A stretch of 64,000 nt of DNA, taken from a virus. The stretch is from IMG/VR virus record IMGVR_UViG_3300005340_000004, positions 7,878-71,877 of that record; one strand, given 5' to 3'. How positions within the stretch are numbered: the first letter of the stretch is position 1; every line of letters starts with the position of its first letter. Below the pieces are notes generated by a model. It was not told where the DNA came from and did not search any database. It was given only the letters and a program-made list of their open reading frames with translations. Positions 8,631 through 62,771 of the stretch are shown here, piece by piece. The translations under genes were made by a program, and so were the position numbers.

Positions 8631-8651
8631 TCCCTTTATAAGCGGTTGCCT

Positions 8652-13941: not shown

Positions 13942-13970
13942 TTGCGGTTAATGGGTTGTAAGCGTATACA
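13942..13970 (+). promoter_or_regulatory. Putative early promoter
   Basis: TTGCGG-N17-TATACA, with TTGTAAGCGTAT shared with the promoter at 15296. Confidence 0.55.
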
Positions 13971-15295: not shown

Positions 15296-15324
15296 TTGCG
15301 ATCGTTGCATTGTAAGCGTATAGG
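15296..15324 (+). promoter_or_regulatory. Putative early promoter
   Basis: TTGCGA-N17-TATAGG; near-duplicate of the 13942 promoter. Confidence 0.55.
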
Positions 15325-15336
15325 TTCTGTAGATAT

Positions 15337-15684
15337 ATGAAAACCACACTGACCACCTCAGACATCGCACACGCACTCAAGAACGATTATAATGCCAATT
15401 GGAGCTGGGCCGGGGCACGTGCTCTCGCCGAGTATTTGGAGGAATACGAAGAATCCGCCGGCGAGGAAATGGAACTGGACGTTGTCGCGATCCGTTGCGA
15501 CTTCTCCGAATACTCCTCCCTTCAGGACTGGGCTATCGAGTATTTCGGCGGTGAAGAACAAGCTAAAGGAAATCTAAACACTGAAGATGCGCTATATGAG
15601 TGTGACGATGAAATCTGCGACTACATCCGCGATCACGGCCAGTTGATTGAGTTCAATGGCGGCATTATCGTTTCCTCATTCTAA
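15337..15684 (+). CDS. Highly acidic early phage protein
   Basis: ALAEYLEEYEE...ELDVVAIRCDFSEY; very Asp/Glu-rich. Confidence 0.7.
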   Translation: MKTTLTTSDIAHALKNDYNANWSWAGARALAEYLEEYEESAGEEMELDVVAIRCDFSEYSSLQDWAIEYFGGEEQAKGNLNTEDALYECDDEICDYIRDHGQLIEFNGGIIVSSF

Positions 15685-16107: not shown

Positions 16108-18518
16108 TCCCATGATCACCACACCACGCAAACCACTTACCCGCATCTCTCGGGCTCCCGATGCTCCTCATGGGGTTAATTCAAAGCTTGTTGTTACTCT
16201 CTGTCCTTCTTCTGGCACCCTTAAGATTAGGGAACATGGGAGACGAGAGCCTTCTTCTGTTACTGTGTCCCTGGCGCAGATTTATCAGATGGCGATGAGG
16301 CGTAAATACCTTGGGGTGTAGCATTCGCAGCCGCCCTGACATTCGCCATTTCACACCCTTCAACCCGCACACCTACATTCACCCTATTGTTAACAAGTAT
16401 ATGAAAGACACTGACAACTACGGAAAGCCAAAATCGGATTACCTTGCCAAAATTCAGAGTTGGGATGACGACACCCTTTTCAATGAAACGAAAGATAAAA
16501 TCTGGCTTTCGGCTTACGCCCAAAACAACCCGCGAAGCGATTACCACTGGCAGGATGACGCAATATATGACGAATGGAACAAGCGGAACAAGCTTGGAGA
16601 ATATTCCAAAGCTTACAAACAGGTAGTAGCTGCAAACACATGGCCGCACACAAAATAGCCTCCTTCCTCTTGGGTAATAAACTCCGTGGAGAGAAGTTGT
16701 GGATACTGACGCAAACAAACCCGACTGAAAGGAACAAGGCCGAGATTATGGAGTTACAACAAAAGATTTCCGCCTCATACCTTGAGGTATTTGGGGAAAT
16801 TGCACCTTGGGAGGATTCAGAATAAATTTATGAAAACAGAACTGATAATGAAGCATTGGCAGCGTGGCGGAACTGGAATCACAAACTTTCGGCCCAGTAG
16901 TCGCTGGATTTACGAGCAAGCGATTGCAGAATATGTAAATTCGGGCGGAAAATCTGAATTGGTTATCTGCACCAGTCCAATCGGAGATACCAATATTCCT
17001 ACCGATTTTTCACTGCACTCCTTGGATAGCTCCGATCTTTCGGGGTTCTGGGAAATTTTTAAGGAAATTAAGGGATGAAACGCAACTGTAAAGCCTCTTG
17101 GTTCTCCCTGACTCCGTTTCGGCGAATCCCTGGGTATCTAAAAACCTCAATCCTCATTCTCTTTATTCTCATTGTCTGTATCTTTTTACAGGTGATGGGG
17201 ATGAGGAATTAAATATATGAAACATCACGAACTTATCTATTGCGACAATCAAAAAGAATACGATTCCATTCAGTCTCAGATTAAAGCGCGGTGGACGGAT
17301 GCCGTTTTTGAAGACGGCTCAGACTATATTCACGAATACCGATTTTCTGTTGATCTTGATTGCGAGGAGTCAGATTTCGTCATGCTTGCGCTTTCTGGAA
17401 AATGGGCATTGGCCTGTTTCGGGATTCAAATGATGCGAATGGGAGGCAGTAAAGAGCAGGAAAAGTTACTTGGCTACCTAAAGCAGTTTGAGTCACAGAA
17501 AACAAAATCAACCCTTGCATTGTAAGCGTATTTTATTGATAACAAGAAAACAAATATATGAAACTACAACGAGATTGGAACCCTGTTAGAAGCGGGAAAT
17601 ATTACTGCTCACCAGCTTGCGGTTGCGGATGCACGTATCAAGCGTTTAAACAAGCAAATGCGAGCGCAAAGAAGATGATCTCAGCAATGAAGAATCCCGA
17701 TAAATGGCAAGCTGAAGTATGGGAGAATTGCGGATGGCACTATTCAATCAAGTGCGGACTTCTGGCTGTTACTTCAGGACATCTCAAAACTCAATTCTCG
17801 GCCCATTACGACCATCAACATTGGTGTGATGCCAAAACTCCACAGAAAGCAGCCGACAAGGTTCTTAAATCTGTGAAGGATGAAATCAAGCGGCTGCAAG
17901 CAATCACAACTTTCTTCCCTTAACCAATATATGAAAACTAGAACTAAAGGAGAGTGGAAGGCAATCAGTATGGATTCAGAGGGATACAACCACAACGATG
18001 CAGTGCGGGTTGTTTCGGAAAATGGAACTCCTATCGCGGAATGTTCATATGCTTGCTGCATGTTGACGCCAGAAAACGCCAAATTCATCGCCATGGCGGG
18101 AACGGTAGCTCACAAGCTCGATTCTCTCGGATATGATGGAGAGAAAGCAATTGAGATGCTGCCGGAGATTTTGAAACAACTTCGATTTCTAAAGGGAGAA
18201 GTTGAGTATTCCAATAGAGAAGCAATCCAAAGCACGGAATTTCTTATTGATTCCATTAAACCATGAACACCATAACAACCTCCTCTGGAGTCACAGTTGA
18301 GATCATTGATATGTCTCCACTCAAGAAAGAAGGCTTCATCTCCATGTTTGGGGATTCTAAAACGCCCTACAAGGCCGACGCAACCCACGGACAGGCCAAC
18401 GTAGCCTTGGGAGAGTTTGTTACGCCTGACGAGGCTTTAAACGCTGTTACGGCCTATGGTGCGACTGTCTGCCATTGGTTCATTCGCGGTAAACAAGTGA
18501 AGTAAACATTAAAACAAT

Positions 18519-44037: not shown

Positions 44038-45264
44038 CTACGTGGAGCAGGTGATCGAGTCGTTACCGAAACCGCAGCGACGATAGCGGAAGACGTATGC
44101 GAGTTCAGGACGAGGAGCAACGTCACCCAGCTCGAAACGAGCGAATGGGAAGACCTGATCTCCGAAGGCATTGGTCGCACTAACCGAGCCATCAGCACAC
44201 ACAATCGAAGGTGTGTTGATGAACTTCCACGTTCCCATGTAGTTCTGAGGCTCGTATTTGATACGGTTGTTACCCCATGAGAGCTTGGGAAGGTTCGGAA
44301 CGGACAGCTTATAGGCCATGGTATTGAAGATATAGGCATCTTCGTAGGTGGCGTTAAGGTAGTCCGGCGAAACCTCGACATCGTTACCAATCGTGGTAGG
44401 AGTGGAAGAGCCATCCCCGAAAGGACGAACTTCGATCCACGTTCCGCTCACGAAGTTCCAACGCTTCGGATACATGATCGTCTCAAAGATGAAATCGCGG
44501 TAAGTCTCAACCTGCTGACCCATGGGGTTGAGGAGCATGACCGGATCACCGAAACGAATATCCTCACGGATGGACTGATCCTGACGAATCAGGTTTTCGC
44601 GAGCTTCCCAAGAGAGGAAGACGGTGTAGATGTTGTTACCACCCACCTGAGCAGGAGCCTGACCCTGAGCCTTATACTGAAGGTTCACCCACGCCTGCTT
44701 GAAGCGGTTGTAGGTAAGCGTTCCCGTAGCTGCAACCGCAGGGAATGTGAGGCCAGAGCTAACCGGGTCAGCCGCAGCCGTGCCGTTGCGAACCACAACC
44801 TTGTTACCGGCGTTGTTCGTATAGCGGGTCTGAATCTGGTCCATCATAATGAAACCAGTGGCGTCCGATAGGCCATCCACAAAGGCATCCACGATGTAAG
44901 GGGCGTTGGCCGAATACATGAGGTCCTGCAAGCAGAGAGGAGGCGCATTGAGGTCACCAATCTGCATGTCGATAGCCTTGGCCTGAGTGCCGGGCCATTC
45001 GACCTGAGTGAGAGGAGGGTTACAAGAGCGATTCGCAGCGGAGAGGTCAGAGACGCTGGACATAACCAGAGTCGGAGGACGGACACGCTGAACGATGGAG
45101 TAACGCTGGTTCAGGCCCATTGCGGTATCGAGGTCCACCTTTTCGGTGTATTCGTTCCACATGTGATCGTGACCCGTGCGTTTGTCGAAAATCATCTTTC
45201 CGATGACATCCGAGTTCTTCAAGAGACTCGGGACAATGTTACAATTTGCTGATACTTCGGCCAT
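44038..45264 (-). CDS. Major capsid protein (likely start ATG 45264, MAEVSANC, 408 aa)
   Basis: Size, position after portal and scaffold, and its own promoter and terminator. No diagnostic motif recognised. Confidence 0.7.
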   Translation of the reverse strand: MAEVSANCNIVPSLLKNSDVIGKMIFDKRTGHDHMWNEYTEKVDLDTAMGLNQRYSIVQRVRPPTLVMSSVSDLSAANRSCNPPLTQVEWPGTQAKAIDMQIGDLNAPPLCLQDLMYSANAPYIVDAFVDGLSDATGFIMMDQIQTRYTNNAGNKVVVRNGTAAADPVSSGLTFPAVAATGTLTYNRFKQAWVNLQYKAQGQAPAQVGGNNIYTVFLSWEARENLIRQDQSIREDIRFGDPVMLLNPMGQQVETYRDFIFETIMYPKRWNFVSGTWIEVRPFGDGSSTPTTIGNDVEVSPDYLNATYEDAYIFNTMAYKLSVPNLPKLSWGNNRIKYEPQNYMGTWKFINTPSIVCADGSVSATNAFGDQVFPFARFELGDVAPRPELAYVFRYRRCGFGNDSITCST

Positions 45265-45409
45265 AATAGTGAGAGCGGTTAGCGTCCTTTGACGCGGGTG
45301 TAGTGATTCATTTATGCAGACCTTCTGCACTTCTTTGAACCTCTGCCACTCTCATTTGTTATCCGGTGAGCTTCCGGCCTATGGTCGAGATTTAAACTGT
45401 TGAGTCTCT

Positions 45410-45435
45410 TTTATCGAAAACAATAAATTGGTCAA
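45410..45435 (-). promoter_or_regulatory. Putative late promoter for the capsid gene
   Basis: TTGACCAATTTATTGTTTTCGATAAA on the minus strand; identical to 7863-7888. Confidence 0.65.
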
Positions 45436-51186: not shown

Positions 51187-51858
51187 CTACTTCTGCACCA
51201 CTAAAATCGTGTGACCCTCGTGCCAATGCTCAATAACTGAAGGAGATAGCCATTCTTTGAGGTAGGATTCTGACCACAAATTTTGATGCTCGGGATGAAA
51301 GTCGCAGTCACGCATGTTCTCCACCGTAGGAAGCATCAGGATCAATCTTCCGCCCTCTTTAACTAGATTGAGAGCCTTCTTGATAAACCATTCAGGATTA
51401 TCCAAGTGCTCGATAAGGTCCATGGCTACAATCGTTCCAAAGACTCCTTCGTTTTCATCTTCGTGCTCCCAGTTGATGTCTTCAAAGAATCCCGTGGTTA
51501 CGTCGCATCCTGCATAGTCCAGAATTGGTTGTGAATATCTTTCGTCTGGCTCGATGCCCTCAGCTTCAAATCCTGCTTCTCTGGCGGCTTTTAGAAATGA
51601 TCCGGGAGCGCAGGCGACTTCAAGAATTGGACCGACTTTACAGTATTTAAGGACGGCCTGAACTTTTGACTCTCCCTTTTCATTCAGGATATTTTCGCAG
51701 TTGTATCGCTGTTCTTCCAAAGTCGAATGTTCTTTCCCGTCCCAATATCCCTCAAGATAGCCCTCTTTTGGAAAAGGGATGCGGTTGTGATACGAACCGC
51801 ACTCTAGGCAGGTGTCAAAGTTTTCGTGCTCGCTTGGAATCCAAAAGTGCTGGTGCAT
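51187..51858 (-). CDS. Class I SAM methyltransferase, glycan/O-antigen type
   Basis: ILEVACAPGSFL...GIEP...MDLIEHLDNP...EGGRLIL...EHQNLWS. Confidence 0.8.
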   Translation of the reverse strand: MHQHFWIPSEHENFDTCLECGSYHNRIPFPKEGYLEGYWDGKEHSTLEEQRYNCENILNEKGESKVQAVLKYCKVGPILEVACAPGSFLKAAREAGFEAEGIEPDERYSQPILDYAGCDVTTGFFEDINWEHEDENEGVFGTIVAMDLIEHLDNPEWFIKKALNLVKEGGRLILMLPTVENMRDCDFHPEHQNLWSESYLKEWLSPSVIEHWHEGHTILVVQK

Positions 51859-52601
51859 TACAAAGCCCTCCGTTCAATTTCATCTCGGTAAGGCATGTTT
51901 TTTCCTGACCCATTGAAGTGAAAAACCATGGGTGAGTTTCCAGTTTCTTTCACCACGATCTTTTCTCCGCTGAAATCCAACTCATCTTCATAAACTTCAT
52001 GGAGAGCTACGCAGATTTTGGTTTCGGTATCTAGGGTGATAGCCAAATCTCCAAAGAGAAGCCTACGCATCCACCAGTCTTGATCGTTGTCCTCAACTCT
52101 TACACCTTGTTCATTAGCGTAGTCGTCTTTAATTAACTCTGGGTCACACTCTTTAAAAGCGGTTTTGATTCCGGCCAACTCAGCCACTCCAAACCCACTG
52201 TTCAAGTATTTAAAGGAGCTTTTGCAGGGAGGATGTTCTAAGGCTAGTGACGCATCGCTAAAGCAACTCTTTTCACTGTTCCAAAGAATTGAAGGGCATC
52301 TTGGTGTTGTTGCCTGAATAGCCAGAAATTCTTCGATGATGTTAAATGGGCTGTCCATAAACACAACATCGAACGAATCGGTGAGAATCAGGTATTCCGC
52401 GTTTACCAGTCCTGATTCAATAGCTCGCTTCAAGGTTTTAACTTTTGAACCCAATCCTCCCCATGAATCCTGACCAAGAATAACTGGTTCAAATCCGTAT
52501 TTACGAACCGAAGCAAACATCTTTTCTGGCCGGTAGTAGGTTTCGTGTGGAGCGGGAACTTTTCCCATCCATGTGACTACCTGAATGTTTCGCTCGATCA
52601 T
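51858..52601 (-). CDS. PLOD-type (procollagen galactosyl/glucosyltransferase-like) GT domain protein
   Basis: LTDSFDV, ILWNSEKSCF, FKYLNSG, DNDQ, LDTETKI and FHFNG in the order of the PLOD GT domain. Confidence 0.75.
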   Translation of the reverse strand: MIERNIQVVTWMGKVPAPHETYYRPEKMFASVRKYGFEPVILGQDSWGGLGSKVKTLKRAIESGLVNAEYLILTDSFDVVFMDSPFNIIEEFLAIQATTPRCPSILWNSEKSCFSDASLALEHPPCKSSFKYLNSGFGVAELAGIKTAFKECDPELIKDDYANEQGVRVEDNDQDWWMRRLLFGDLAITLDTETKICVALHEVYEDELDFSGEKIVVKETGNSPMVFHFNGSGKNMPYRDEIERRAL

Positions 52602-53548
52602 AAATACTTCCTCAAAATTGGTAGCAGGTAATTGTTGATGTAGGGAGTTGTCTCGTAGTTACGCATGTTCTCAACAGCCGATAGATAGATGTTGTGCAGG
52701 AAGTCACATTTGGTTGCGTCAAGTAAGTCTCGATACTCGTTTCCTGGGGTTAGGTGGAAGCAGTTGACTAGATTCCTCCACGGATAGCTCCAGATTTTAT
52801 TCTGACTGTGGATTGCTGGGATGGTGTTTATCATCTCGGTTGATCTGAAGCAGACAGTTCCAGCCCCGCTCAAGGATACCCCTATCTTGGCGCGAGATTG
52901 CCACAGGACGAGTTCATTGATGTGGCGGCGGTGTGAGTGGGGGATGTGGACGGACAACCATTTCTTGACCGGCTCATGCAGCTTTGCTTCGGCGTAATCC
53001 AAGTTACCAATAACTTCGTGAGCGTTCTTGCACCAGCCTTTGTAAATATCTCCGTGGAGATTGGGGCGGGCGCAGTTTGAGAAGCCCCAGAAGTTCGATA
53101 CTTCAAACGGTCGAGAATCGAAACTTTCCTTTCCTTCAATCGCCCATGGCTGTAAATAACACGGCCACTCCAAGGGATAGACATTCTCTTGTTCTGCGTC
53201 TGTGAAAAGCTCGCGGATAAATTGACATACTGGAGGATTGTCCCGAACGAACTCGGAAAACTTTACCCACTCCTGATTCCCGCTGATCGGATGAAAGTCT
53301 CTTCCCCATAGGTGAGTTGTGAATGCAGGCCACTCCCCATAAAACTCAGTTGTGCAGGCAACTACATACTTCTTTCCTTTGAGTTGATAGAGAGCTTCGT
53401 TGAACTTGAAGTCGCTAAAATAAGAGATTCCTACGATCACCAAATCCTCGTCGGTCACTACAAAGTTAGGAACATGCTTCCATAATCTTTCCAGTAAAAT
53501 ACCATCATGCCTTTGCTGGGCATCTGCCGGAACAAATCGAAGCCTCAC
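52598..53548 (-). CDS. GT-B glycosyltransferase, exostosin/GT47-like C-terminus
   Basis: SRAKIGVSLSGAGTVCFRSTEM...IP. Confidence 0.55.
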   Translation of the reverse strand: MRLRFVPADAQQRHDGILLERLWKHVPNFVVTDEDLVIVGISYFSDFKFNEALYQLKGKKYVVACTTEFYGEWPAFTTHLWGRDFHPISGNQEWVKFSEFVRDNPPVCQFIRELFTDAEQENVYPLEWPCYLQPWAIEGKESFDSRPFEVSNFWGFSNCARPNLHGDIYKGWCKNAHEVIGNLDYAEAKLHEPVKKWLSVHIPHSHRRHINELVLWQSRAKIGVSLSGAGTVCFRSTEMINTIPAIHSQNKIWSYPWRNLVNCFHLTPGNEYRDLLDATKCDFLHNIYLSAVENMRNYETTPYINNYLLPILRKYL

Positions 53549-54186
53549 CGCACAATCCTTTCCTTATACTCATTCAGAAGGAGAACTCGTTTCTCGGTCG
53601 TCATTCCTGGTAGATGAAGCGCGAAGTGACCCTCCTGCCAATTTCCCGGAGTAGATTCCGACCCGCTATACTCAGCCCAGAGAAAGCTATTACAGCGATC
53701 TTGCGGCATCACCTTAAAAGACTCTCTGATGGGATCGTCGGAGTTTCGATAAACGCTATCTAGGTAATCCTGAAAACAAAAGATTCCGCCATCAGGATAA
53801 AGCATCTTCCATCCATGGCCCAAAAGCCCAAACGATAACATTGAATCGCTCATCATTAGGAATCCATCATTTATCATCATCCTTCCGTTGTAGTCGGCCT
53901 CAGAGGTGATAACGCATTTATTGTTTTCAATAAATGATTCCAACTTGACTCCAAAATGGGTCGGCATCCAATCCGCGTCCACATGCACCGCCCAATCAGA
54001 ATTTTTCAATGCGTCTTGCAGGCTGTTGACGCGCTCCCAAATACTGTCTCGCTCTGGGTTTACGACCACTTTTGGATGAAACTCGTAACCGTGTAAATCG
54101 CAGTATTTCTGGATGATCGGCCAAGTAATGTCAGAGACTTTTTGATAATCTCCTTCAGTTACTTCGCTAGTAACAATAATTTTCAC
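53545..54186 (-). CDS. GT34 (GMA12/MNN10-like) glycosyltransferase
   Basis: KYCDLHGYEF...WERV...DWAVHVDAD...INDGFLMM...WQEGHFALHLPG. Confidence 0.75.
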   Translation of the reverse strand: MKIIVTSEVTEGDYQKVSDITWPIIQKYCDLHGYEFHPKVVVNPERDSIWERVNSLQDALKNSDWAVHVDADWMPTHFGVKLESFIENNKCVITSEADYNGRMMINDGFLMMSDSMLSFGLLGHGWKMLYPDGGIFCFQDYLDSVYRNSDDPIRESFKVMPQDRCNSFLWAEYSGSESTPGNWQEGHFALHLPGMTTEKRVLLLNEYKERIVR

Positions 54187-54695
54187 AACTTTTTCACAAC
54201 CAAGTAGAAGCTGTATGGCGGAACATCAGGATTCTCGAAAAGAATTTCCCATGGTCCGGTTTTGTCAATCACATTGGCCTTGAGCGCTTCCAATGAGAAG
54301 TCAACTTCCTTATGTGCGTCGTTCGTTCCTTGTCCAGTGGCAGCACAATGAGCAAGGAATTTTTGCTGGTTAGGATTGTTAAAAATGCACAGTCCCCCAA
54401 CCTTCAAAACCCGATGCCATTCTCGGACAATCGTTTCAAGTTCCGGCCAAACGAAATCTTCGGCAACGTGGTGTTGGATGATGTAATCCAAGACATTATC
54501 GCAGAACCCCGACAAATCGCCGCAATGCCCCCTTAGAGTCTGCTGCACGGTCCCGACAGAGGTATATGGCTGTGGAAGATCGAGAGTGATTAGCGAGTCG
54601 TCAGGGACGGTCTTTTCTCCACCAGCCCCGATTTCCAATCCTAGGCCTTTACAATATTTGGCAAGAACTGGTCTTGCTTGAGCGCACTCAGACAT
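54183..54695 (-). CDS. Class I SAM methyltransferase
   Basis: GLEIGAGG...LDYIIQHHVAED...EWHRVLKVGG. Confidence 0.8.
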   Translation of the reverse strand: MSECAQARPVLAKYCKGLGLEIGAGGEKTVPDDSLITLDLPQPYTSVGTVQQTLRGHCGDLSGFCDNVLDYIIQHHVAEDFVWPELETIVREWHRVLKVGGLCIFNNPNQQKFLAHCAATGQGTNDAHKEVDFSLEALKANVIDKTGPWEILFENPDVPPYSFYLVVKKL

Positions 54696-55719
54696 TTTTA
54701 CCCTCCTGAACTTTTTGGATTACTTCTCTGGCTTTCTCAATCTGAGCATACCAAGAATTTTCAAATGATGCCCCGCCGTAGTTGGGGTATTTGGCGAGGA
54801 GTTGGTTGGCGAGGTCTTGCTTCTTACTGAGTTCCAATCCTTGTGCGGCCTCAGCCTCATTCGTTTCTCTGAGGACGTATTTATGGTTCAGAGACTTGCG
54901 CTCAATGCCATCTTTGCCACGGAGATACCAGTAACCTCCCGGAGGCGAGATCGTGAAGTCCACCTCTCTTTCAAGGCTTCGTGATGGGATGTTTAGAGGT
55001 CTGTATCCCTTGACCTTAAAATCCTGAACGCCCCCATCCAGACAGTAAAAAGAATCTGGTCGGCGATATACGCAATCCATCGACCAAACCGAAGTCTCTA
55101 CCAGATATTGCTTTCCCATTGCGATAGCAATATTCAGGAGGGATGATTGGTTCCCAAGGAATGCTCGGGAAGCGGAGATGATCTGGGCGCATTGGAGTAG
55201 ATCGGTTGTGGGTTGATGCCTCAACTTGATCCCCGTCTCATTCTCCAATTGAATCTTCTCTTCTAGCAGACCAAGGAATACTAAATCTTTTTCGTAGTGA
55301 GCCAAGATTGGAGCCCAATTCATCAGATGCGACCTGTGTCTTGTTGATCTATTGATAACAATACAGCCTTCAAACTCTGGGTTTGGGTCAATCTTTAGCC
55401 ATGGTTCCTCACTAATCTCTACGTTCACCCAGTCCGCGTGAAGGCGTGCTAGCGAATGCCCGTATGGAATACCTCCGTCTCGGAAGGTCGCCATGTCATG
55501 CGTGATTACCTGTCCGTTGTGAGGTTCAAATTCCTCGATGTATTCGCTCGCATCCATCAGGGGTTTGATGGCGTCGAATCTTCCTGGGGCAAGGATGGGT
55601 TTGCACAGAGGGTTATTGGTCACATACAGCGACATTTTACCCAAAGCTCTTGCTGTTGGGATAATACACAAAAGATCGCCCAGATCACCGAAGCTTCTAC
55701 CAGTGAACGACTTACTCAT
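54688..55719 (-). CDS. GT9 (heptosyltransferase-like) glycosyltransferase
   Basis: GDLGDLL...DLLQCAQIISASRAFLGNQSSLLNIAIAMGK. Confidence 0.75.
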   Translation of the reverse strand: MSKSFTGRSFGDLGDLLCIIPTARALGKMSLYVTNNPLCKPILAPGRFDAIKPLMDASEYIEEFEPHNGQVITHDMATFRDGGIPYGHSLARLHADWVNVEISEEPWLKIDPNPEFEGCIVINRSTRHRSHLMNWAPILAHYEKDLVFLGLLEEKIQLENETGIKLRHQPTTDLLQCAQIISASRAFLGNQSSLLNIAIAMGKQYLVETSVWSMDCVYRRPDSFYCLDGGVQDFKVKGYRPLNIPSRSLEREVDFTISPPGGYWYLRGKDGIERKSLNHKYVLRETNEAEAAQGLELSKKQDLANQLLAKYPNYGGASFENSWYAQIEKAREVIQKVQEGKNV

Positions 55720-57182: not shown

Positions 57183-57319
57183 GTGCTAACCGTTACACTA
57201 TCTACCAGCCATCCTCGGATTTATGGTCATTGACGGGATTCGAACCCTATCCTCGCTTGTGTCGAGCTTTACCGTTAAGCTACTCCTGAGTTAACAACAG
57301 GCAAGGATTCGAACCTTGC
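57183..57319 (-). pseudogene. Cluster of tRNA-like fragments (two T arms, two D arms, one CCA end)
   Basis: GCAAGG-TTCGAAT-CCTTGC; TAGCTTAACGGTAAAGC; GGG-TTCGAAT-CCC...TGACCA; TAGTGTAACGGTTAGCAC. No intact acceptor stem. Confidence 0.55.
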
Positions 57320-57338
57320 AACTCCGACTGCACTTACC

Positions 57339-60300
57339 CTACTCCAATTCAGAGCCCAAAGACAAGCCATTACTACGGGCAATCTCATCTCTGACTTGTT
57401 GAGGTAAAGTTCTCTTTCTTTCCCTGAGCTGTCCCAAAAGATACTGAGAAGGGGTGTATGGCGAGTAGATTCCTTTAAGGAGTTTACTCGCATCTTTCTG
57501 AGTAACATTCCGAGAGAGTAGGCTAGCCTTGATTTCGGAATCTGGCACACCTCTGCGTTGTGCAGCCCTGATGGCTCGATACATCTGTTTCCAAAGTTCA
57601 AATCTAGCTGTATTGCTGTTTGTGTAACTGTCGATAACTTCCTGTGGCTCCACCGTTCCACGACGCAAGGCGACATCTCGGAAGATGCGTTCAGAATTTG
57701 CATCTGCTTCCCTGAAGTCCGACGCCTTGTATCCTAGAGCTTGAGCGTAATCGAGTGTTTGCTGTTTGACGCCAGTGAGTTCAGCCGCAATTTCCTGAGT
57801 TGGAGAAAGCTGGTCACCAAAACTTGTGGTCTTGCCTTGAAAAGCCGGAATGATCTTCTTCCTGAGTCGATTCAAAGTTCCTGGTTCCAGAGCTTCGGCG
57901 ATATGCCCCATGATCTTGGATGCCTTGTCGGGATCAGAGGGATTGTAGACCTCTCGACCTCCTGCTGTTTGATTGCGTGCAACGTCGATCAGTTTGGCCG
58001 CAAGGATGCCTTCATTTGCAAAAGGTTGAATGGCCTCGGCAAACATTTCTCCTGCGATCTGATCGGCTCCTTCTCCTGAGTTCAGTCCAGCGACAATCGG
58101 GATAGTTAGGTCCGCAATACCGCTGTAAGGATTGGCGTAAGACAAGTTAACGAACGATAAGTCTCCGGGCTTCTTTCCGGTAAATAGAAGCTGAGAGTTA
58201 CGATCCCATGGAGCCATAAACTGTCTCGCATCATCAGCCTCCTCTGGAGAGATTCCAAGAATTGCTCGGGATGCTGCGGACAATCCATATCCGCCCGCCA
58301 TTACAGCAAGAATACCAGCCGCTCTACGCGCTCCTGATGCTCTTTGCGCTGCGTTATCACTCTGCAAATCTTCCGCTGCGTATTTGAGGTTGTGCGCGAA
58401 AGTTCGGTAGGACTCGTAGGCAAAAGTAACGAACGGCCCGAAGAAGGGTTGCTTGCGGAACTGCCTTACCCACTCAGGAACCATTGAGTAAGTTGGGTAG
58501 GTATTTCGGATTCTCTGAGATGCTTCAAGTTCGGCCCGTTCTTGTGTCCACTCTGGATGAATGGCCTTCTGCGTAGCCAGTTCGTTCTCAAACCCCACGA
58601 TTTTTCCGATGTCATCTGAGAGTTGATAAGACTTCTCTGCCGCACCAATTGTGTATTTGCGGAGGTTTTGTAGAGCGATGGAAGTTTGGTCGAACTGATC
58701 CAAGTTGGGATCGGTAAGTCCGGCGTCTTTGAGGACATCTCGAAGTTCACTTGCTGCCGTGGATTGATCGACTACACCAAGTCTTAGGTATCGTTTGTAT
58801 ACCTCCTGTGACTTCTTTCCAGTTCCAGCAAGGTCGGCAAAAATAGACGTTCCGGCCTGAGTGATAGGCTTTGGATTCCAGTGACCATTGAGCAACCAAA
58901 AGTAGGGTTGACCCATAGTGTTACGAACTTGGGTCATTACCGATCCTACGGTTTTGCTGGTCTTGGCAAGAGCGTTTGCTTGAAGCCAAGTTCTCCAAAG
59001 TCCTTTAGCTTGTGGATCAGCTTTGTTGAACTCGGCGAAAGCAGCAGCGATTTGAGGGGTTGTCCTCAATCCGTTCATCGGAGCCATCGTCCGGGATTCT
59101 GGCGCGGCAATCAATGCATCAAATCCCGGAGGCTGAGTTCCGTCTTCAAACAGGAATTTCCCTAAACCTTCTTTACGGACGTCGCGCAAAAACTTTTCGT
59201 TCGCAATGACGCTTGCCATCTTGGTAACTGAACGAGCGTAGTTTATGACTGGATTTTTGTATTCGCCTAGAAGGTTACGAAGTTCTTCAGGGATGTCTTT
59301 ACGACGAATGAAAGAGGAAAGGTCTTTGCTTCCAAGCTTTGCTCCCTTTTTAACCAAAACTCCCGTTCCCTCGTCCTGCCAATCCTGAAGCATGGCATCA
59401 ACATCTCGGCGCGCATCAGTTACGGAGTAAGTTGGATCGAATTTCTGATTCTCTTTCAGAATGAAATTGAGAGCTTTGTTATAGACCTCAGGCTCGATTT
59501 TCTCCCGCCATTTTGGGTCGTCAAACATCCGGTAGGAGCGAGTCAGATACACACCCATGTTATCTCCGACAACGGCCTTGAGTTCTTCGGGAACAAGCCC
59601 CTCGTCGATCATCTTCTGGGACAAAGCATCCACATGGTCACGCATGGCCTGTAATGGGCCTCTAACAGCTTCTGGCAGCGTATCCATATCAACACGCCCA
59701 AGAAGAGCATCGTTCATTCTAGCGACAAATTCCTTGGGGATGCGAGACATGCCCTTGAAAAACTCTTCGCCTTTACTGATCTTAAACTCTTCCTTCAGAG
59801 AGTTGTATAAATCTCGGGTTGCATAAGCAATTTCGCGAGATTGTTCCTTGATCGCTCCGGTTCTCTGAGTGGCTTTGTGAAAAACCTCTGTTGGCAAGTC
59901 TCCTTCTGCCACAAAAAGCCTGCGAAGATTATCCGAAAACCAGCGAGTAAATTTGTTGTCTGGAGTCAGTCCAAGAATGTAGGGAGAGTTGCGAAGCTTT
60001 GCGAGTCCGCGACTTTGAAGCGAGCGAACGACATTCGGCTTCATCCCAAGTCTCTCGGCAATCTCTGAATTGGATAGTCCTTCCTGCATCGCAAGCAGGA
60101 CATTTCTTTCTCCTTCGGGAAAGTCTTTCAGTAGTGTATTGATTCTTTCGCGTGCTTCAGCAACCTCAATTCCTTGAGAAACATCGGCTGTTTCTGGTGC
60201 AGCAATCGTATCAGCAATGGTTGACTCTTCGCCAATAGGAGCTTCAAGGCTTGTCTCGCGTTGATTCTTGGGGATTTCCTGCCTCAAAAAATCATTCGCA

Positions 60301-62744
60301 GCATTTCTGCCAATCGTATTTACCCAAGTACTGAACGCTCCTTTTTCTGGATTGAATGATTGCTCGGCAGCTTTAGCTTTCACTAAAGCGTTCTGAACAA
60401 CATCAGGAATGTTATCTTCGGGGATATTTTTAGCGCGAGCAATAGACTCCAGACGAACTCTGGTTTTGTCACTTGCAAGATTTTCGTCAAAACTTGCGGA
60501 TTTCTTGTTTTCAATAACCGGTTCCGCCGCACGCTCCATGGCAGAAGTAATCTTGTCTCCATCCTTAGGATTTTGGAGAGATCCTTCGATAAACTCATTG
60601 CCAATCAGGAATCCGCTTTCACGGTTGGTTGGTTTGACGAGATTCGTATTTCCCTCGGCTACGAGATTTCCAAGTCCGAGTGCATGGATACGGTCGTTCG
60701 GAGAGATGAAAACTTCCCCTGATGTTTTATCTCTGAACGCAATAAGGGGCTTGGGGCCGTAGTTGGTCCCATCCCACTTTCCGATAACAGGGGTCGAACC
60801 CGTTTCGGCGGTTATGCTGTTTTCTCTTCCTGATTCATTTACTTCTTGGGTCGGGAGTCCTTGTCGCGGGGCGTTCCCTTGTTCTTCGACCACGACTTCG
60901 CGCGGACTTCCTTCATTTTGCTCGGCCACGTTGGACCTTCCACTTTGGCTGTATTCTTGGGCATTTTGTGTTGTTGGTTGTGCCGCTTCCGCGACGGTTT
61001 CTTGTGAAATTAAAAGGTCGATTGGGACAACGCCATTTTTAGTTAGGATAAAGTTATCCGGCTTGGCGTCCCCCACCAATAGTCCGTCGGATTCGCGCGT
61101 CCACTTATGAGTTCCGGGTGCGGCCTCAAAACCCTCTTCCTGCATAAACGCCTCAATCTGTTTGAGGGTAGGATTTGCGTTCTTCGTATCGACGGGACGA
61201 ATGTTCTTCTGAGAGATAACCAAATCCGCAGATGTTTTGTCATCATCCAATTCATCGGCGCGACGAGCAACGCCTTCAATGGAAATATCCGTTCCGAAAA
61301 TCTCATTCGTAAGACGTATACGATCCAAATACTCGGGAAGAGTTGCTTTCTCTAGTCCGATTCGGCCCTCCGCATCCTTTTTTGGAACAAGGCCAAATTG
61401 GTTGCGTTGCAAGACCTTTACATACCTATCTTTGTCGGGAGAAAAGTAAACGTCGTGCTCGGTCGTCTTTGTTCTGCGATCCTCTAAGGAGGAAATTTGC
61501 TCCTCGCTAATTTTCGGCAGTTCAGCTTCTAGGCTCCCCAGTTGTTGTTCTGGACTCTGCGCTTGAAGGTTTCCTCCACTTGCTCCTTGCTCTGCTGACT
61601 CAACTGGTCTTTGGATAATTTCGATTGCATCCAATACTGATCGTTGAGCTTGTGCCTGAGCTTCAGGGCTTGGGACATCGGCAGTAATTTCGGGAAGTTC
61701 ATTGGCTACTTCTTGGGCTTGCGCTTCGGGCGCGGCTTCGGTTTGCGTTTCGAGGACAAGATCACTTTCTGATTGGATAGGAGCGGGTTCATTGATTATT
61801 TCCTCGGTAAATCCCGCCAAGTCAGGTGTGACGGCAGGTTCGCTAACGACCTCAGCTCCCTGTTCCGAAAGTGGCGTAGCTGGTTGTTGAGTGGATTGTT
61901 CTTCGGGCGCAAGAACTCCTTCAGGGATATTTGTTTCCGTTTCATTTATTGTTTTCGATAAATCTTTTTGAGCTAGAACCGATGCTGTAGCAGGAAGGTC
62001 GGAATTAAGTGCAGCAATTACCCTTGGTGATGCAGCATGAGCTACACCAAGTCCACCAAGGGCAAGATTTCCTGTCAGTCCAACCAAAGCCTCTGCCTTT
62101 TGCCCTGCTGTCTCAGATCGGTTCAGACTTTCGACTTGTTCAGGAACTCCCGATAGCATCTGTGCGCCAAAACCGCCTGCTGCCGCTCTTTGGATATTGG
62201 GAAGAGTTGCTTCGCCTAAAGCTGCTGCACCGGCCCTTGTGATGGCATTCTCCGGCCCAAGGCCAATCGGGATCATGGCCGCGTTGATGGGATTTGTCAG
62301 AGAATTGGCTACGGCGACCGCTCCTCGTCCTGCGCCCCTGAGAACTGAAGGGATGCCTGTTTCTCCGGGAATTTGCTCTAGTCCAAGATCGCGAATAACA
62401 TCTTCAGTTGGAGCGAGAGGAACGCCAAGGATTCCGCCTTCTCTCGCTACTCGGTCACCTAAAGGAGCAACTTCGTATCGAGTGGAGCCGTCAGACTGAG
62501 TTACCGGAATGGCGTTGTCATCTACCGCTGTCTGAGTAGGAATCCTAAACTCATCGGAGAATAGAGTAGCAGGAGCGGTAAAGACGTTGGAAACTTTGGC
62601 AGCAACATTACCAACCTGATCCATTAAAGACGGACCACCTTCAATCTTTGGGCGATCCTTGGGATCAGGAACAGAATCCAGCCATGAATCGAATTGGCTT
62701 TTCGGTTCTGGAACTTCCGCAAGATACTCTTCAAGAGTAGGCAT
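57339..62744 (-). CDS. Large polyvalent internal virion/ejection protein with kinase-like and ECF sigma domains (likely start ATG 62744, MPTLEEY)
   Basis: About 1800 aa. Kinase-like region ~61010-61470, sigma2+sigma4 ~59990-60460, long helical C-terminus typical of ejection proteins. Confidence 0.75.
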   Translation of the reverse strand: MPTLEEYLAEVPEPKSQFDSWLDSVPDPKDRPKIEGGPSLMDQVGNVAAKVSNVFTAPATLFSDEFRIPTQTAVDDNAIPVTQSDGSTRYEVAPLGDRVAREGGILGVPLAPTEDVIRDLGLEQIPGETGIPSVLRGAGRGAVAVANSLTNPINAAMIPIGLGPENAITRAGAAALGEATLPNIQRAAAGGFGAQMLSGVPEQVESLNRSETAGQKAEALVGLTGNLALGGLGVAHAASPRVIAALNSDLPATASVLAQKDLSKTINETETNIPEGVLAPEEQSTQQPATPLSEQGAEVVSEPAVTPDLAGFTEEIINEPAPIQSESDLVLETQTEAAPEAQAQEVANELPEITADVPSPEAQAQAQRSVLDAIEIIQRPVESAEQGASGGNLQAQSPEQQLGSLEAELPKISEEQISSLEDRRTKTTEHDVYFSPDKDRYVKVLQRNQFGLVPKKDAEGRIGLEKATLPEYLDRIRLTNEIFGTDISIEGVARRADELDDDKTSADLVISQKNIRPVDTKNANPTLKQIEAFMQEEGFEAAPGTHKWTRESDGLLVGDAKPDNFILTKNGVVPIDLLISQETVAEAAQPTTQNAQEYSQSGRSNVAEQNEGSPREVVVEEQGNAPRQGLPTQEVNESGRENSITAETGSTPVIGKWDGTNYGPKPLIAFRDKTSGEVFISPNDRIHALGLGNLVAEGNTNLVKPTNRESGFLIGNEFIEGSLQNPKDGDKITSAMERAAEPVIENKKSASFDENLASDKTRVRLESIARAKNIPEDNIPDVVQNALVKAKAAEQSFNPEKGAFSTWVNTIGRNAANDFLRQEIPKNQRETSLEAPIGEESTIADTIAAPETADVSQGIEVAEARERINTLLKDFPEGERNVLLAMQEGLSNSEIAERLGMKPNVVRSLQSRGLAKLRNSPYILGLTPDNKFTRWFSDNLRRLFVAEGDLPTEVFHKATQRTGAIKEQSREIAYATRDLYNSLKEEFKISKGEEFFKGMSRIPKEFVARMNDALLGRVDMDTLPEAVRGPLQAMRDHVDALSQKMIDEGLVPEELKAVVGDNMGVYLTRSYRMFDDPKWREKIEPEVYNKALNFILKENQKFDPTYSVTDARRDVDAMLQDWQDEGTGVLVKKGAKLGSKDLSSFIRRKDIPEELRNLLGEYKNPVINYARSVTKMASVIANEKFLRDVRKEGLGKFLFEDGTQPPGFDALIAAPESRTMAPMNGLRTTPQIAAAFAEFNKADPQAKGLWRTWLQANALAKTSKTVGSVMTQVRNTMGQPYFWLLNGHWNPKPITQAGTSIFADLAGTGKKSQEVYKRYLRLGVVDQSTAASELRDVLKDAGLTDPNLDQFDQTSIALQNLRKYTIGAAEKSYQLSDDIGKIVGFENELATQKAIHPEWTQERAELEASQRIRNTYPTYSMVPEWVRQFRKQPFFGPFVTFAYESYRTFAHNLKYAAEDLQSDNAAQRASGARRAAGILAVMAGGYGLSAASRAILGISPEEADDARQFMAPWDRNSQLLFTGKKPGDLSFVNLSYANPYSGIADLTIPIVAGLNSGEGADQIAGEMFAEAIQPFANEGILAAKLIDVARNQTAGGREVYNPSDPDKASKIMGHIAEALEPGTLNRLRKKIIPAFQGKTTSFGDQLSPTQEIAAELTGVKQQTLDYAQALGYKASDFREADANSERIFRDVALRRGTVEPQEVIDSYTNSNTARFELWKQMYRAIRAAQRRGVPDSEIKASLLSRNVTQKDASKLLKGIYSPYTPSQYLLGQLRERKRTLPQQVRDEIARSNGLSLGSELE

Positions 62745-62771
62745 TCTCGAAAACAATAAAAGTTTTCCGTC

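What the first reader, a model, noticed from the sequence alone, without database searches (positions are those of the whole stretch)
59990..60460. Complete ECF-type sigma factor embedded in a ~1800-aa putative ejection protein
Seen: sigma2-like LESIARAKNIPEDNIPDVVQNALVKA...SFNPEKGAFSTWVNTIGRNAANDFLRQ, linker TSLEAPIGE, and sigma4-like LKDFPEGERNVLLAMQEGLSNSEIAERLGMKPNVVRSLQSRGLAKLR. Known: podovirus ejection and polyvalent proteins deliver enzymatic domains, and N4 and crAss-like phages inject RNA polymerases. Inference: this phage packages and injects a sigma factor that could redirect host RNAP before any phage gene is expressed, or tether RNAP to drive DNA entry. I do not know of a characterised example.
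Basis: partly seen in the sequence, partly recalled or inferred. Interest (0 to 1): 0.88.

Follow-up and report, generated by a model that had tools for sequence, protein, structure and literature searches.

The report
Sigma factor inside phage virion protein
An uncultured 72-kb phage carries a complete bacterial-type (ECF) sigma factor as one module of a giant protein that is probably packed in the virus particle, so it may bring its own promoter-selection subunit into the cell together with its DNA; this has not been tested at the bench.

Summary
Window 59990-60460 (minus strand) encodes a complete ECF-type sigma factor (sigma2 + linker + sigma4). It scores TIGR02937 76.9 bits against a cut-off of 42.9, and the AlphaFold model matches ECF sigmas in RNA polymerase complexes. 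It lies inside one 1801-aa ORF (57339-62744, minus).

The C-terminal ~860 aa is a widespread carrier module:
- It is homologous to Cellulophaga phage phi18:3 gp123, which was found in virions by MS/MS.
- 112 large metagenomic proteins share it. Their N-terminal parts carry swappable domains such as ART-PolyVal, GNAT, Zeta toxin, ParB and GGDEF.
- This makes the protein a polyvalent virion protein.

Sigma is a rare cargo, seen in 3 of 113 family members examined. One LPD1-type polyvalent protein also carries it. All 27 IMG/VR relatives of the domain are free-standing sigma genes. I detected no RNA polymerase and no second sigma in the genome.

Packaging, injection and polymerase binding are inferred, not shown. 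I found no convincing cognate promoter, only a three-copy repeat in the small-ORF region.

Six of my eight literature searches looked for a virion-delivered sigma factor, and none found one. This scan has noted similar sigma modules in giant virion proteins of other genomes.

Verdict: new variant of a known kind.

The parts
57339..62744 (-). Gene for the 1801-aa polyvalent virion-type protein (ATG at 62744; stop included)
   Evidence: Open frame. Start context. Identical database record P0002, 1801 aa.
61962..62549 (-). Conserved N-terminal Gly/Ala-rich domain (about residues 70-265), with one hydrophobic segment
   Evidence: Shared with P0003 (32% identity) and with cargo-less relatives P0152-P0162. 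Hydrophobic window at P0002 residues 217-235.
61026..61481 (-). Kinase-PolyVal-like cargo domain (residues 426-577), weak hit
   Evidence: PF18762 E 2.9e-4, 21.3 bits, below the cut-off of 27. No alignable counterpart in P0003 or in the other family members.
60249..60509 (-). Sigma2 domain (regions 2.1-2.4; about residues 750-836)
   Evidence: PF04542 at 768-826. Four helices with pLDDT above 90 in the AF2 model. Conserved D785, Q788, W811, R817, N818, D822, R825.
60147..60248 (-). Sigma2-sigma4 linker containing TSLEAPIGE
   Evidence: Low pLDDT in the model. The S..P motif is invariant in the five fusion-type sigma domains.
59988..60146 (-). Sigma4 domain (region 4.2 helix-turn-helix; residues 871-923)
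   Evidence: PF08281 30.6 bits and PF04545 24.0 bits. pLDDT above 90.
57342..59951 (-). C-terminal ~870-aa carrier module, starting with the conserved NSPYILGLTPDNK motif
   Evidence: phrog_22602 'virion structural protein' E 3.5e-44. tblastn to phi18:3 gp123 E 2e-42. 112 homologues. AF2 pLDDT 79.9, pTM 0.76. BFVD gave 133 matches at E<=0.001, many named large polyvalent protein associated.
62744..62759 (.). Copy of the genome-wide 16-bp palindrome TTMTTGWWWWCAAKAA, touching the start codon
61946..61961 (.). Palindrome copy inside the gene, at the end of the N-terminal domain (encodes DLSKTIN)
60502..60517 (.). Palindrome copy inside the gene, at the N-terminal edge of the sigma module (encodes VIENKK)
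13951..13968 (+). Candidate phage-specific promoter repeat (..TTGTAAGCGTATA), copy 1
15305..15322 (+). Candidate promoter repeat TTGCATTGTAAGCGTATA, copy 2
17515..17532 (+). Candidate promoter repeat TTGCATTGTAAGCGTATT, copy 3

Best explanation
The gene encodes a polyvalent virion protein built as conserved N-terminal domain, flexible linkers with swappable cargo, and a conserved ~860-aa C-terminal carrier module. In this phage the cargo is a weak kinase-like domain plus a complete ECF-type sigma factor. Most likely the protein is packed in the capsid through its carrier module and is expelled with the DNA at infection. The sigma module then reaches the cytoplasm, docks on host core RNA polymerase through sigma2 and sigma4, and directs it to phage promoters before any phage protein has been made. 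Shown: the domain is a genuine, complete ECF sigma. It is in frame inside the giant ORF. The fusion is conserved in two other phage-sized contigs. The carrier family has an MS-verified virion member and interchangeable effector cargo. Inferred: packaging of this protein, delivery to the cytoplasm, binding to polymerase, and promoter-specific initiation.
For: (1) The sigma is genuine. HMM scores are above the curated cut-offs. The AF2 model has sigma2 and sigma4 at pLDDT above 90. The top Foldseek PDB matches are ECF sigmas inside RNA polymerase initiation complexes (9m9e_F, 6jbq_F, 6jcx_F) and in anti-sigma complexes, with 18 matches at E<=0.001. Of 64 columns conserved among 110 ECF sigmas, 37 are identical in the phage domain, against a mean of 63% (SD 11%) for the ECFs themselves. 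That places it at the 33rd percentile. (2) The fusion is maintained. P0003 (1672 aa, on a 61-kb contig) is 69% identical over one alignment spanning sigma plus carrier, but only 32% in the N-terminal domain, and the linkers do not align. P0058 (1643 aa, on a 65.7-kb contig) has sigma (28% identity) plus carrier (25.5%) in the same order. (3) The carrier points to a virion protein. tblastn to phi18:3 gp123 gives E 2e-42, and that record is annotated 'based on experimental MS/MS proteomics analysis'. phrog_22602 'virion structural protein' scores E 3.5e-44. The gene lies in a long minus-strand block with tail-fibre genes. (4) The cargo is interchangeable. 112 homologues of the carrier were found. 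The carrier ends within 180 aa of the C-terminus in 110 of 112, and the part in front of it is 196-2274 aa long. Precomputed Pfam hits in these proteins include ART-PolyVal, GNAT, Zeta toxin, ParBc, GGDEF, RadC and LPD domains. Several of these act on cytoplasmic substrates (my knowledge), which argues that this part of the protein reaches the cytoplasm. The closest relatives (P0152-P0162, 50-54% identical in the carrier) lack any sigma insert, and their linker runs straight into the carrier's first motif. (5) Sigma occurs in a second carrier type. P0044 (1452 aa) has sigma r2 + r4 in the middle and a C-terminal LPD1 domain. (6) I detected no other transcription gene. There is one Sigma70_r2 match in a six-frame search of the 71,877-bp genome. 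No RNA polymerase or sigma family appeared among the Pfam hits to 98 other ORFs. (7) The only sigma is encoded in the late, structural block. That placement fits action in the next infection rather than in the current one (inference).
Against: There are no virion data for this phage or for any sigma-bearing homologue. The neighbours of the gene show no BLAST similarity to the neighbours of phi18:3 gp123. The protein itself has no LPD Pfam hit. The carrier's similarity to solved ejection proteins is weak: T7 core protein 9jyy_I Z 6.8 and PhiM1 8vb2_A Z 6.2, which are within the range the tool calls common for helical proteins. Sigma4 is followed after about 10 residues by an 870-aa domain, and no protease domain or cleavage site was identified. 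I therefore do not know how the module would be freed, or whether it works while tethered. No cognate promoter was found. The sigma70-type scan gave 12 sites against 17.6 expected. A dyad count gave only A/T-rich low-complexity pairs. The three-copy repeat is not ECF-like. The first stretch ahead of sigma2.2 is divergent: of the 7 conserved columns before residue 760, 1 is identical, 2 are similar and 4 differ. Sigma cargo is rare (3 of 113), so it may be dispensable. RNA polymerases too divergent for Pfam would have been missed.
Confidence: 0.42

Rival explanations
1. The sigma module works in the producing cell, not after injection. The giant late protein, or a processed fragment, serves as the phage's late sigma factor before or instead of being packaged, and its presence in the virion is incidental.
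For: Characterised phage ECF-like sigmas (phiEco32 gp36, 7-11 gp47) act on middle or late promoters (PMC8948821 abstract; PMC4281155 passages). This phage has no other detectable sigma. All 27 IMG/VR relatives of the domain are free-standing genes of 203-298 aa.
Against: A late sigma encoded only within a late structural gene could not start late transcription. The closest carrier relatives do without any sigma. The cargo slot in homologues holds host-directed effector enzymes. No in-frame internal start follows the palindrome at the edge of the sigma module; this is my own reading of the frame and the flanking sequence.
Confidence: 0.17
2. The module is delivered but is not a promoter-specific initiation factor. 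It grips host core RNA polymerase either to sequester it (host shut-off) or to hold it at the cytoplasmic end of the ejection channel, where it would help transcription-driven genome entry.
For: The sigma stays fused to a large carrier through only a ~10-residue connection. No cognate bipartite promoter was found. The core-binding positions of sigma2.2 are conserved.
Against: The DNA-contacting parts, region 2.4 and the region 4.2 helix-turn-helix, are as well conserved as the core-binding part. P0002 and P0003 are 64-67% identical over the sigma region. A pure decoy would not need them.
Confidence: 0.2
3. The protein is not a virion component or is not ejected into the cytoplasm, or the sigma-like module has a structural or DNA-anchoring role inside the capsid. 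In that case the sigma domain never meets host polymerase at entry.
For: Virion association rests on about 24% identity to one MS-verified protein. Fold similarity to ejectosome proteins is weak. In cyanophage A4, pre-ejectosome proteins bind the packaged DNA (PMC12002296 passages), so an HTH domain could serve such a role.
Against: Both the carrier HMM and BLAST hits are strong (E 3.5e-44 and 2e-42). The family-wide effector cargo has no use inside a capsid. The full set of core-binding positions is retained.
Confidence: 0.13

Closest known systems
Polyvalent proteins of phages and conjugative elements (Iyer, Burroughs, Anand, de Souza, Aravind 2017, PMC5512222)
   Same: A giant multi-domain phage protein with interchangeable effector domains. 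Homologues of the carrier bear ART-PolyVal, Zeta toxin, GNAT, ParB, RadC and LPD1/LPD5. BFVD fold matches are named 'Large polyvalent protein associated domain-containing protein'. There is a weak Kinase-PolyVal hit in the protein itself.
   Different: The word 'sigma' occurs 0 times in that paper's main text (supplements not seen). This protein has no LPD Pfam hit. A sigma factor would be a non-enzymatic cargo that supplies a polymerase subunit rather than modifying host proteins.
Cellulophaga phage phi18:3 gp123 (Pachyviridae), virion structural protein by MS/MS
   Same: A homologous C-terminal module (23.8% identity over query residues 818-1762, E 2e-42). It is of similar size (1935 aa) and is the last gene of a ~71-kb genome.
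   Different: It has no Pfam domain at all, so no sigma. The neighbouring genes are not detectably related.
Free-standing phage ECF-like sigma factors: phiEco32 gp36, Salmonella phage 7-11 gp47
   Same: [quoted passage not shown]
   Different: They are separate ~25-kDa middle-gene products that act on middle or late promoters. In SU10 the sigma was seen with 1 peptide among other non-structural proteins, which is not evidence of packaging.
Virion RNA polymerases (N4 gp50 and kin; crAss-like phages; phiKZ virion RNAP)
   Same: The same logic: transcription machinery travels with the DNA, so early genes can be read at once. In N4 it forms part of the ejectosome (PMC13434306, abstract in the search listing).
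   Different: Those phages deliver a whole polymerase. Here only the promoter-specificity subunit would be delivered, and the host's catalytic core would be used.
T7 gp16-type tetrameric ejection proteins (T7 9jyy_I, E1004 9vvp_W, PhiM1 8vb2_A)
   Same: Large helical internal virion proteins of podophages. They give the longest structural alignments to the carrier: 229-257 residues, Z 6.2-6.8. 8vb2_A ranks 6 of 48,161 chains.
   Different: The Z scores are below the level the tool regards as specific for helical proteins. There is no lytic transglycosylase domain here.
Phage T4 Alt (packaged ADP-ribosyltransferase)
   Same: A head-packaged protein that is injected with the DNA and retargets host RNA polymerase to phage DNA (as described in the PMC5512222 introduction passage).
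   Different: It is an enzyme that modifies the polymerase, not a subunit that joins it.

Membership tests
ECF (group 4) sigma-70 family sigma factors | Sigma2 domain (regions 2.1-2.4) | tested here: met
   PF04542 36.3 bits against 24. Four-helix domain at pLDDT above 90.
ECF (group 4) sigma-70 family sigma factors | Sigma4 domain with the region 4.2 helix-turn-helix | tested here: met
   PF08281 30.6 bits against 25.7; PF04545 24.0 against 24.1. pLDDT above 90.
ECF (group 4) sigma-70 family sigma factors | No region 1.1 and no sigma3 domain; a short linker between sigma2 and sigma4 | tested here: met
   No Sigma70_r3 or r1 hit among the 11 Pfam families listed. A ~45-residue low-confidence linker in the model.
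ECF (group 4) sigma-70 family sigma factors | Whole-domain model above the curated cut-off | tested here: met
   TIGR02937 76.9 bits against 42.9. No subfamily or equivalog model reaches its cut-off; the best is TIGR02984 at 59 against 183.75.
ECF (group 4) sigma-70 family sigma factors | Fold like solved ECF sigmas | tested here: met
   Foldseek PDB top hits are 9m9e_F, 6jbq_F, 6jcx_F, 4cxf_A and 1or7_B, E 1e-5 to 2e-4. By sequence, 1or7_A scores 4.7e-7.
ECF (group 4) sigma-70 family sigma factors | Free-standing protein of about 20-25 kDa | tested here: not met
   The domain is embedded at residues ~745-925 of an 1801-aa ORF.
ECF (group 4) sigma-70 family sigma factors | Binds core RNA polymerase and directs initiation at a cognate promoter | not testable with these tools
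   The host is unknown. The promoter searches were inconclusive.
Polyvalent proteins (Iyer et al. 2017) | Very large multi-domain protein of a phage with several unrelated effector domains | tested here: met
   1801 aa in a complete 71.9-kb virus record. Sigma plus a weak Kinase-PolyVal hit.
Polyvalent proteins (Iyer et al. 2017) | Homologues share a scaffold while their effector domains differ | tested here: met
   112 carrier homologues with ART-PolyVal, GNAT, Zeta toxin, ParBc, GGDEF, RadC or LPD cargo.
Polyvalent proteins (Iyer et al. 2017) | Presence of a 'large polyvalent protein associated domain' (LPD) | tested here: inconclusive
   No LPD Pfam hit in this protein. Many BFVD fold matches to the carrier carry that name, and some sequence homologues carry LPD1/LPD5.
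Polyvalent proteins (Iyer et al. 2017) | Packaged and delivered into the recipient cell with the DNA | not testable with these tools
   Indirect only: phi18:3 gp123 was found in virions by MS/MS, and phi24B gp47, an LPD protein, was found in virions by proteomics (bioRxiv 10.64898/2026.04.10.717836, one passage).
phrog_22602 / phi18:3 gp123-like virion structural proteins | Sequence match to the family profile | tested here: met
   E 3.5e-44, residues 1058-1746 on profile positions 1181-1867 of 1943. P0003 and P0058 also match.
T7 gp16-type ejection (core) proteins | Shared fold with solved core proteins | tested here: inconclusive
   Z 6.8 (9jyy_I, rmsd 7.4, 229 aligned), Z 6.4 (9vvp_W), Z 6.2 (8vb2_A, rmsd 6.2, 257 aligned). 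Foldseek gave E 0.28.
T7 gp16-type ejection (core) proteins | N-terminal lytic transglycosylase domain | tested here: not met
   No such Pfam family among the 11 listed at E<=1.

The most novel reading that the evidence does not exclude
The phage injects a ready-made sigma factor that stays tethered to its ejection apparatus. At the cytoplasmic mouth of the channel it captures host core RNA polymerase and starts transcription at phage-specific single-element promoters of the TTGTAAGCGTAT type on the entering genome, before any phage gene is expressed, and possibly helps to pull the DNA in. Sigma would then be a recurrent, independently acquired cargo of polyvalent virion proteins. It is seen in at least two carrier types here, and other windows of this scan note similar modules. 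That would amount to a third strategy for immediate-early phage transcription, beside host sigma-70 promoters and injected RNA polymerases.
Probability: 0.2. Interest if true: 0.85.

Novelty: new variant of a known kind. Interest (0 to 1): 0.64.

Why it matters
Phages are known to start early transcription in two ways. They use promoters that the host's own holoenzyme reads, or they bring a complete RNA polymerase in the virion, as N4, crAss-like and phiKZ-like phages do. A virion-delivered sigma factor would be a third, cheaper solution: about 180 residues that reprogramme the host enzyme at the moment of entry. It would also add a transcription-initiation subunit to the repertoire of polyvalent-protein cargo, which so far is described as enzymes, anti-restriction modules and DNA-binding modules. 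The module is small, folds confidently and can be expressed alone, so the idea is directly testable. Tests would include core-polymerase binding and run-off transcription on phage DNA. The same architecture in other uncultured phages offers independent test cases.

Tried and rejected
A viral-contig scan with the window's sigma region found no relative among 77 pattern matches. A metagenome-contig scan with the P0002/P0003 alignment found 1 of 186 stretches, a 1584-bp contig with a sigma-sized ORF at 32% identity. Co-occurrence of the sigma with a promoter motif therefore could not be tested.

2. A viral-contig scan with five fusion-type sigma domains returned 27 loci. All 27 are free-standing ORFs of 203-298 aa, two of them cut by a contig end. 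No further fusion was found in this way.

3. Promoter searches gave little.
- Sigma-70 consensus sites were not enriched: 12 against 17.6 expected, SD 3.7.
- A count of 5-mer/4-mer dyads with 14-19 nt gaps gave only A/T-rich pairs.
- CTAGTCGATTTYYACC matched 3 times against 1.59 expected, and 21 of 100 shuffles reached 3 matches, so I rejected it as a signal.
- TTGTAAGCGTATA with up to 2 mismatches matched 5 times against 0.86 expected, and 1 of 100 shuffles reached 5. I kept it only as a candidate.

4. I considered the genome-wide palindrome as a sigma target and rejected it. It is a perfect dyad of the kind a dimeric regulator binds, about half of its 29 strict copies lie inside ORFs, and it often abuts ATG codons.

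5. There is no synteny with phi18:3. BLAST of 12 neighbouring proteins against gp114-gp123 and two vB_Pun_Y3 proteins gave only one chance-level hit, E 0.004.

6. The StenR_269 protein annotated 'putative virion-associated RNA polymerase' matches the carrier weakly (E 1e-6). It has no sequence match to any PDB chain, so I make no claim that the carrier also carries polymerases.

7. Foldseek of the carrier against PDB gave no match at E<=0.001.

8. PHROG scans of 30 neighbouring or large ORFs gave mostly nothing. Portal, terminase and capsid genes were not identified by profile.

9. Complex prediction was not used. The host is unknown, and a stand-in polymerase fragment would pass mainly by likeness to solved sigma-core structures.

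10. Papers, and what I saw of each:
- PMC5512222: passages from a term search only.
- PMC7824862: passages.
- bioRxiv 10.64898/2026.04.10.717836: one passage.
- PMC12002296: passages.
- PMC11440229: passages.
- PMC4281155: passages.
- PMC8948821: abstract and outline.
- PMC13434306, PMC11445570 and PMC10172136: search listing and the start of the abstract only.
- No supplements were seen. The supplement of PMC5512222 could list rare domains, sigma among them.

11. The statement that a virion-delivered sigma factor is not in print rests on six searches of the held library only. Two further searches concerned Cellulophaga phage proteomics and the PhiM1 ejectosome.
Full report
OBSERVATION. The window is bases 7878-71877 of a 71,877-bp IMG/VR virus record. 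The record is rated 100% complete and its ends repeat 30 bases, which suggests a circular assembly. The region 59990-60460 is meaningless on the plus strand. On the minus strand it lies inside one open frame, 57339-62756. The likely start is the ATG at 62744, 25 nt after the stop of the upstream gene. That gives 1801 aa, identical to database record P0002. Residue numbers below count from the TTG at 62756; subtract 4 for P0002 numbering.

THE SIGMA MODULE IS REAL AND COMPLETE.
- Pfam finds Sigma70_r2 (residues 768-826, 36.3 bits, cut-off 24) and Sigma70_r4_2 (871-921, 30.6 bits, cut-off 25.7). It finds no region 1 or region 3.
- NCBIfam TIGR02937 (sigma70-ECF) scores 76.9 bits against a cut-off of 42.9, E 1.3e-21. 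No narrower ECF subfamily model reaches its own cut-off.
- By sequence, the best solved relatives are E. coli sigmaE (1or7 and 6jbq, E about 5e-7) and CnrH.
- An AlphaFold2 model of residues 715-945, built on 110 ECF sigmas, has mean pLDDT 79. It shows a four-helix sigma2 and a sigma4 at pLDDT above 90, with a low-confidence linker between them.
- The best Foldseek matches in the PDB are ECF sigmas seated in RNA polymerase initiation complexes (M. tuberculosis sigmaH, E. coli sigmaE) or bound to anti-sigmas. There are 18 matches at E<=0.001.
- At 64 alignment columns that are conserved among those 110 ECF sigmas, the phage domain has the consensus residue in 37 (58%). The ECFs themselves average 63% (SD 11%), so the phage domain lies at their 33rd percentile. 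The matches include the region 2.2 Asp/Gln, the region 2.3-2.4 W..TI.RN...D.LR motif, and most of the 4.2 helix-turn-helix.
- The stretch ahead of region 2.2 is the divergent part. Of the 7 conserved columns before residue 760, 1 is identical, 2 are similar and 4 differ.
- One caveat applies. The 110 comparison sequences were chosen as hits to this domain, so the comparison is somewhat favourable to it.

THE HOST PROTEIN. Reading along the protein, the parts are:
- a conserved Gly/Ala-rich N-terminal domain (~70-265) with one hydrophobic segment;
- acidic, Gln/Pro-rich linkers;
- a weak Kinase-PolyVal-like domain (426-577; 21.3 bits, below the cut-off of 27);
- a small unassigned domain (~650-735);
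- the sigma module (~745-925);
- and, after only about 10 residues, a C-terminal module of ~870 aa that opens with NSPYILGLTPDNK.

The C-terminal module matches phrog_22602 'virion structural protein' (E 3.5e-44). By tblastn it matches 11 records among 50,697 isolate phage records:
- Pseudoalteromonas phage vB_Pun_Y3 (31.8% identity, E 3e-94);
- six records of Cellulophaga phages phi18:3, phi13:2 and phi19:3 (about 24-25%, E about 1e-42);
- Pelagibacter phage HTVC027P;
- phage 023Pt_psg01;
- two weak hits, in Xanthomonas phage DES1 and Stenotrophomonas phage StenR_269.

phi18:3 gp123 (1935 aa, the last gene of a 71.4-kb genome) is annotated as a virion structural protein 'based on experimental MS/MS proteomics analysis'. 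It has no Pfam domain. The vB_Pun_Y3 protein has a weak ART-PolyVal hit in front of the module (28.9 bits, below the cut-off of 31.2).

A FAMILY WITH SWAPPABLE CARGO. A search with residues 940-1801 found 112 proteins of 990-3152 aa at E<=0.001, many of them on contigs of 40-90 kb. Local BLAST places the module within 180 aa of the C-terminus in 110 of 112. It is preceded by 196-2274 aa, with a median of 843. Precomputed Pfam hits in these proteins include ART-PolyVal, GNAT acetyltransferases, Zeta toxin/AAA_33, ParBc, GGDEF, RadC, LPD1/LPD5 and other PolyVal-era families.

The AlphaFold2 model of the module (pLDDT 79.9, pTM 0.76) has 133 BFVD matches at E<=0.001. Many of the listed ones are named 'Large polyvalent protein associated domain-containing protein'. 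Others bear Zeta toxin, ART-PolyVal, RelA/SpoT, helicase or lytic transglycosylase labels. This is the architecture that Iyer et al. (2017) called polyvalent proteins.

Against solved structures, Foldseek finds nothing at E<=0.001. VIA-align gives its longest alignments to the T7-gp16-type core proteins of T7, E1004 and PhiM1: Z 6.2-6.8 with 229-257 residues aligned. 8vb2_A ranks 6 of 48,161 chains. These scores lie within what the tool calls common for helical proteins, so I treat the gp16 resemblance as a lead only.

HOW COMMON IS SIGMA CARGO? An HMM built from the ECF alignment finds a sigma domain in 3 of 113 family members: P0002, P0003 and P0058.
- P0003 (1672 aa) is 69% identical to the window's protein across one alignment spanning sigma plus carrier. 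It is only 32% identical in the N-terminal domain, and it has no alignable counterpart of the kinase-like region.
- P0058 (1643 aa) keeps the order sigma then carrier at 28% and 25.5% identity.
- The closest carrier relatives (P0152-P0162, 50-54% identical) have no sigma or kinase-like insert. In an alignment, their linker runs straight into the ..SP[YF].LGI[ST]P.. motif where the window's protein has sigma4.

Sigma is therefore an insertion into the variable slot. It was either gained more than once or lost often.

In the exhaustive phmmer search (1.84 billion representatives; 3011 hits at E<=0.001), the top two hits are the protein itself and P0003. Among the best 150, two further large proteins carry sigma away from their N-terminus. 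P0044 (1452 aa) has sigma in the middle and a C-terminal LPD1 domain. P0135 (1397 aa) has sigma at its C-terminus. By contrast, all 27 IMG/VR loci found with the five fusion-type domains encode free-standing sigmas of 203-298 aa.

REST OF THE GENOME. A six-frame search finds one Sigma70_r2 match, and it is this one. Pfam hits to the other 98 ORFs of 70 aa or more include primase/DnaB helicase, a DNA polymerase III beta domain, RNase H, methyltransferases, a collagen-like fibre, a PLOD-type glycosyltransferase and ATP-grasp enzymes. They include no RNA polymerase and no sigma. PHROG profiles recognise tail-fibre proteins next to the gene's block and a primase-helicase elsewhere. Most structural genes remain unrecognised. 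The gene lies in a minus-strand block that, allowing for the circular join, runs through tail-fibre genes into the giant gene and on to a glycosyltransferase cluster.

MECHANISM. I consider it most likely (0.42) that the protein is packaged through its carrier module, leaves the capsid with the DNA, and brings the sigma module to the cytoplasm. There the module would join host core polymerase and start phage transcription. The steps that are shown are the identity and completeness of the domain, its conservation within the fusion, the carrier family's virion member and the interchangeable cargo. The inferred steps are packaging of this particular protein, cytoplasmic delivery, core binding and promoter choice.

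Two arguments favour action at entry. First, the equivalent part of homologues holds enzymes that use cytoplasmic substrates such as NAD+, acetyl-CoA, ATP and GTP (my knowledge of those families). Second, the phage's only sigma is encoded inside a late structural gene, where it could not initiate the late programme of the same cycle.

Several points count against this reading:
- There are no virion data.
- No protease domain or cleavage site was found that could free the module.
- The connection to the carrier is very short.
- Sigma cargo is rare in the family.
- No cognate promoter was found.

Sigma-70-type sites are not enriched, and a dyad count found nothing. With up to 2 mismatches there are 5 matches against 0.86 expected, and 1 of 100 shuffles reached 5. 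The repeat is not a bipartite ECF motif. Its single-element form recalls the promoters read by phiEco32's ECF-like sigma (passages of PMC4281155). That is an analogy, not evidence.

PRIOR KNOWLEDGE. The main text of the polyvalent-protein paper never mentions sigma (supplements not seen). Six searches aimed at a virion-delivered or polyvalent-borne sigma factor found no such report. The nearest item is SU10's free-standing ECF sigma, detected by one peptide alongside DNA polymerase and other non-structural proteins in a phage preparation.

Within this scan, notes on other genomes describe sigma-like modules inside giant virion proteins (8 of 18 shown). I did not test those notes. They show that the theme recurs, and one of them led me to the SU10 paper.

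VERDICT. This is a new cargo type in a known kind of protein, so a new variant of a known kind. Interest is 0.64. It is a concrete, testable candidate for a third route to immediate-early phage transcription, but it rests on sequence and predicted structure only, in an uncultured phage of unknown host.

Noticed in passing
whole genome; within the gene at window 62744-62759, 61946-61961 and 60502-60517: A 16-bp palindrome, TTMTTGWWWWCAAKAA (perfect form TTATTGTTAACAATAA), has 29 strict copies in 71.9 kb. About half lie inside ORFs, and many are followed directly by ATG on one strand. Three copies mark the start codon, the end of the N-terminal domain and the N-terminal edge of the sigma module. 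Such repeats at module borders could guide recombinational cargo exchange, which is speculation.
   Followed up: partly
window 7863-7888 (+) and 45410-45435 (-): An identical 26-bp stretch, TTGACCAATTTATTGTTTTCGATAAA, occurs twice. It looks like a sigma-70 -35 hexamer with the palindrome in the spacer. One copy is upstream of the 430-aa ORF 44038-45330 and the other is beside the tRNA/non-coding region.
   Followed up: partly
window 57232-57327 (-), just downstream of the giant gene: Two GGTTCGAATCC-like T-arm motifs lie in the 185-nt gap. Rfam gives only weak hits (YrlA 20.6 bits, tRNA 16.7 bits, both below gathering), and ARAGORN calls no tRNA here. This may be a degenerate tRNA-like element.
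   Followed up: partly
window 7695-7848 (+): Two phage tRNA genes, tRNA-Gly(TCC) and tRNA-Arg(TCT), lie 3 nt apart.
   Followed up: no
window 13895-13990 and 15249-15344 (+): Two ~75-nt intergenic segments are similar over CTAGTCGATTT..TTGTTGCG..TTGTAAGCGTATA..GATATATG. They look like a duplicated promoter-leader unit ahead of small ORFs. Each is preceded by a long non-coding tract of more than 200 nt; the tract ahead of the first is C-rich.
   Followed up: partly
window 61026-61481 (-): A Kinase-PolyVal-like domain has a D-A-K-P-D-N catalytic-loop-like motif, with a Pfam score below the cut-off. It has no alignable counterpart in the sigma-bearing homologue P0003, so kinase and sigma are not an obligate pair.
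   Followed up: partly
window 41039-42349 and 51187-55719 (-): A collagen-repeat tail-fibre gene and a cluster with a PLOD-type glycosyltransferase and methyltransferases lie in the same late block. Pfam gives Collagen 3.3e-25 and GT_PLOD 9.6e-18.
   Followed up: no
L002 (Pseudoalteromonas phage vB_Pun_Y3), locus 1-12589: The closest isolate homologue of the carrier (1027 aa, weak ART-PolyVal hit at its N-terminus) is preceded by a second giant ORF of more than 3400 aa annotated 'DdrB-like ParB superfamily domain'. That phage therefore appears to carry two giant ORFs in tandem.
   Followed up: no
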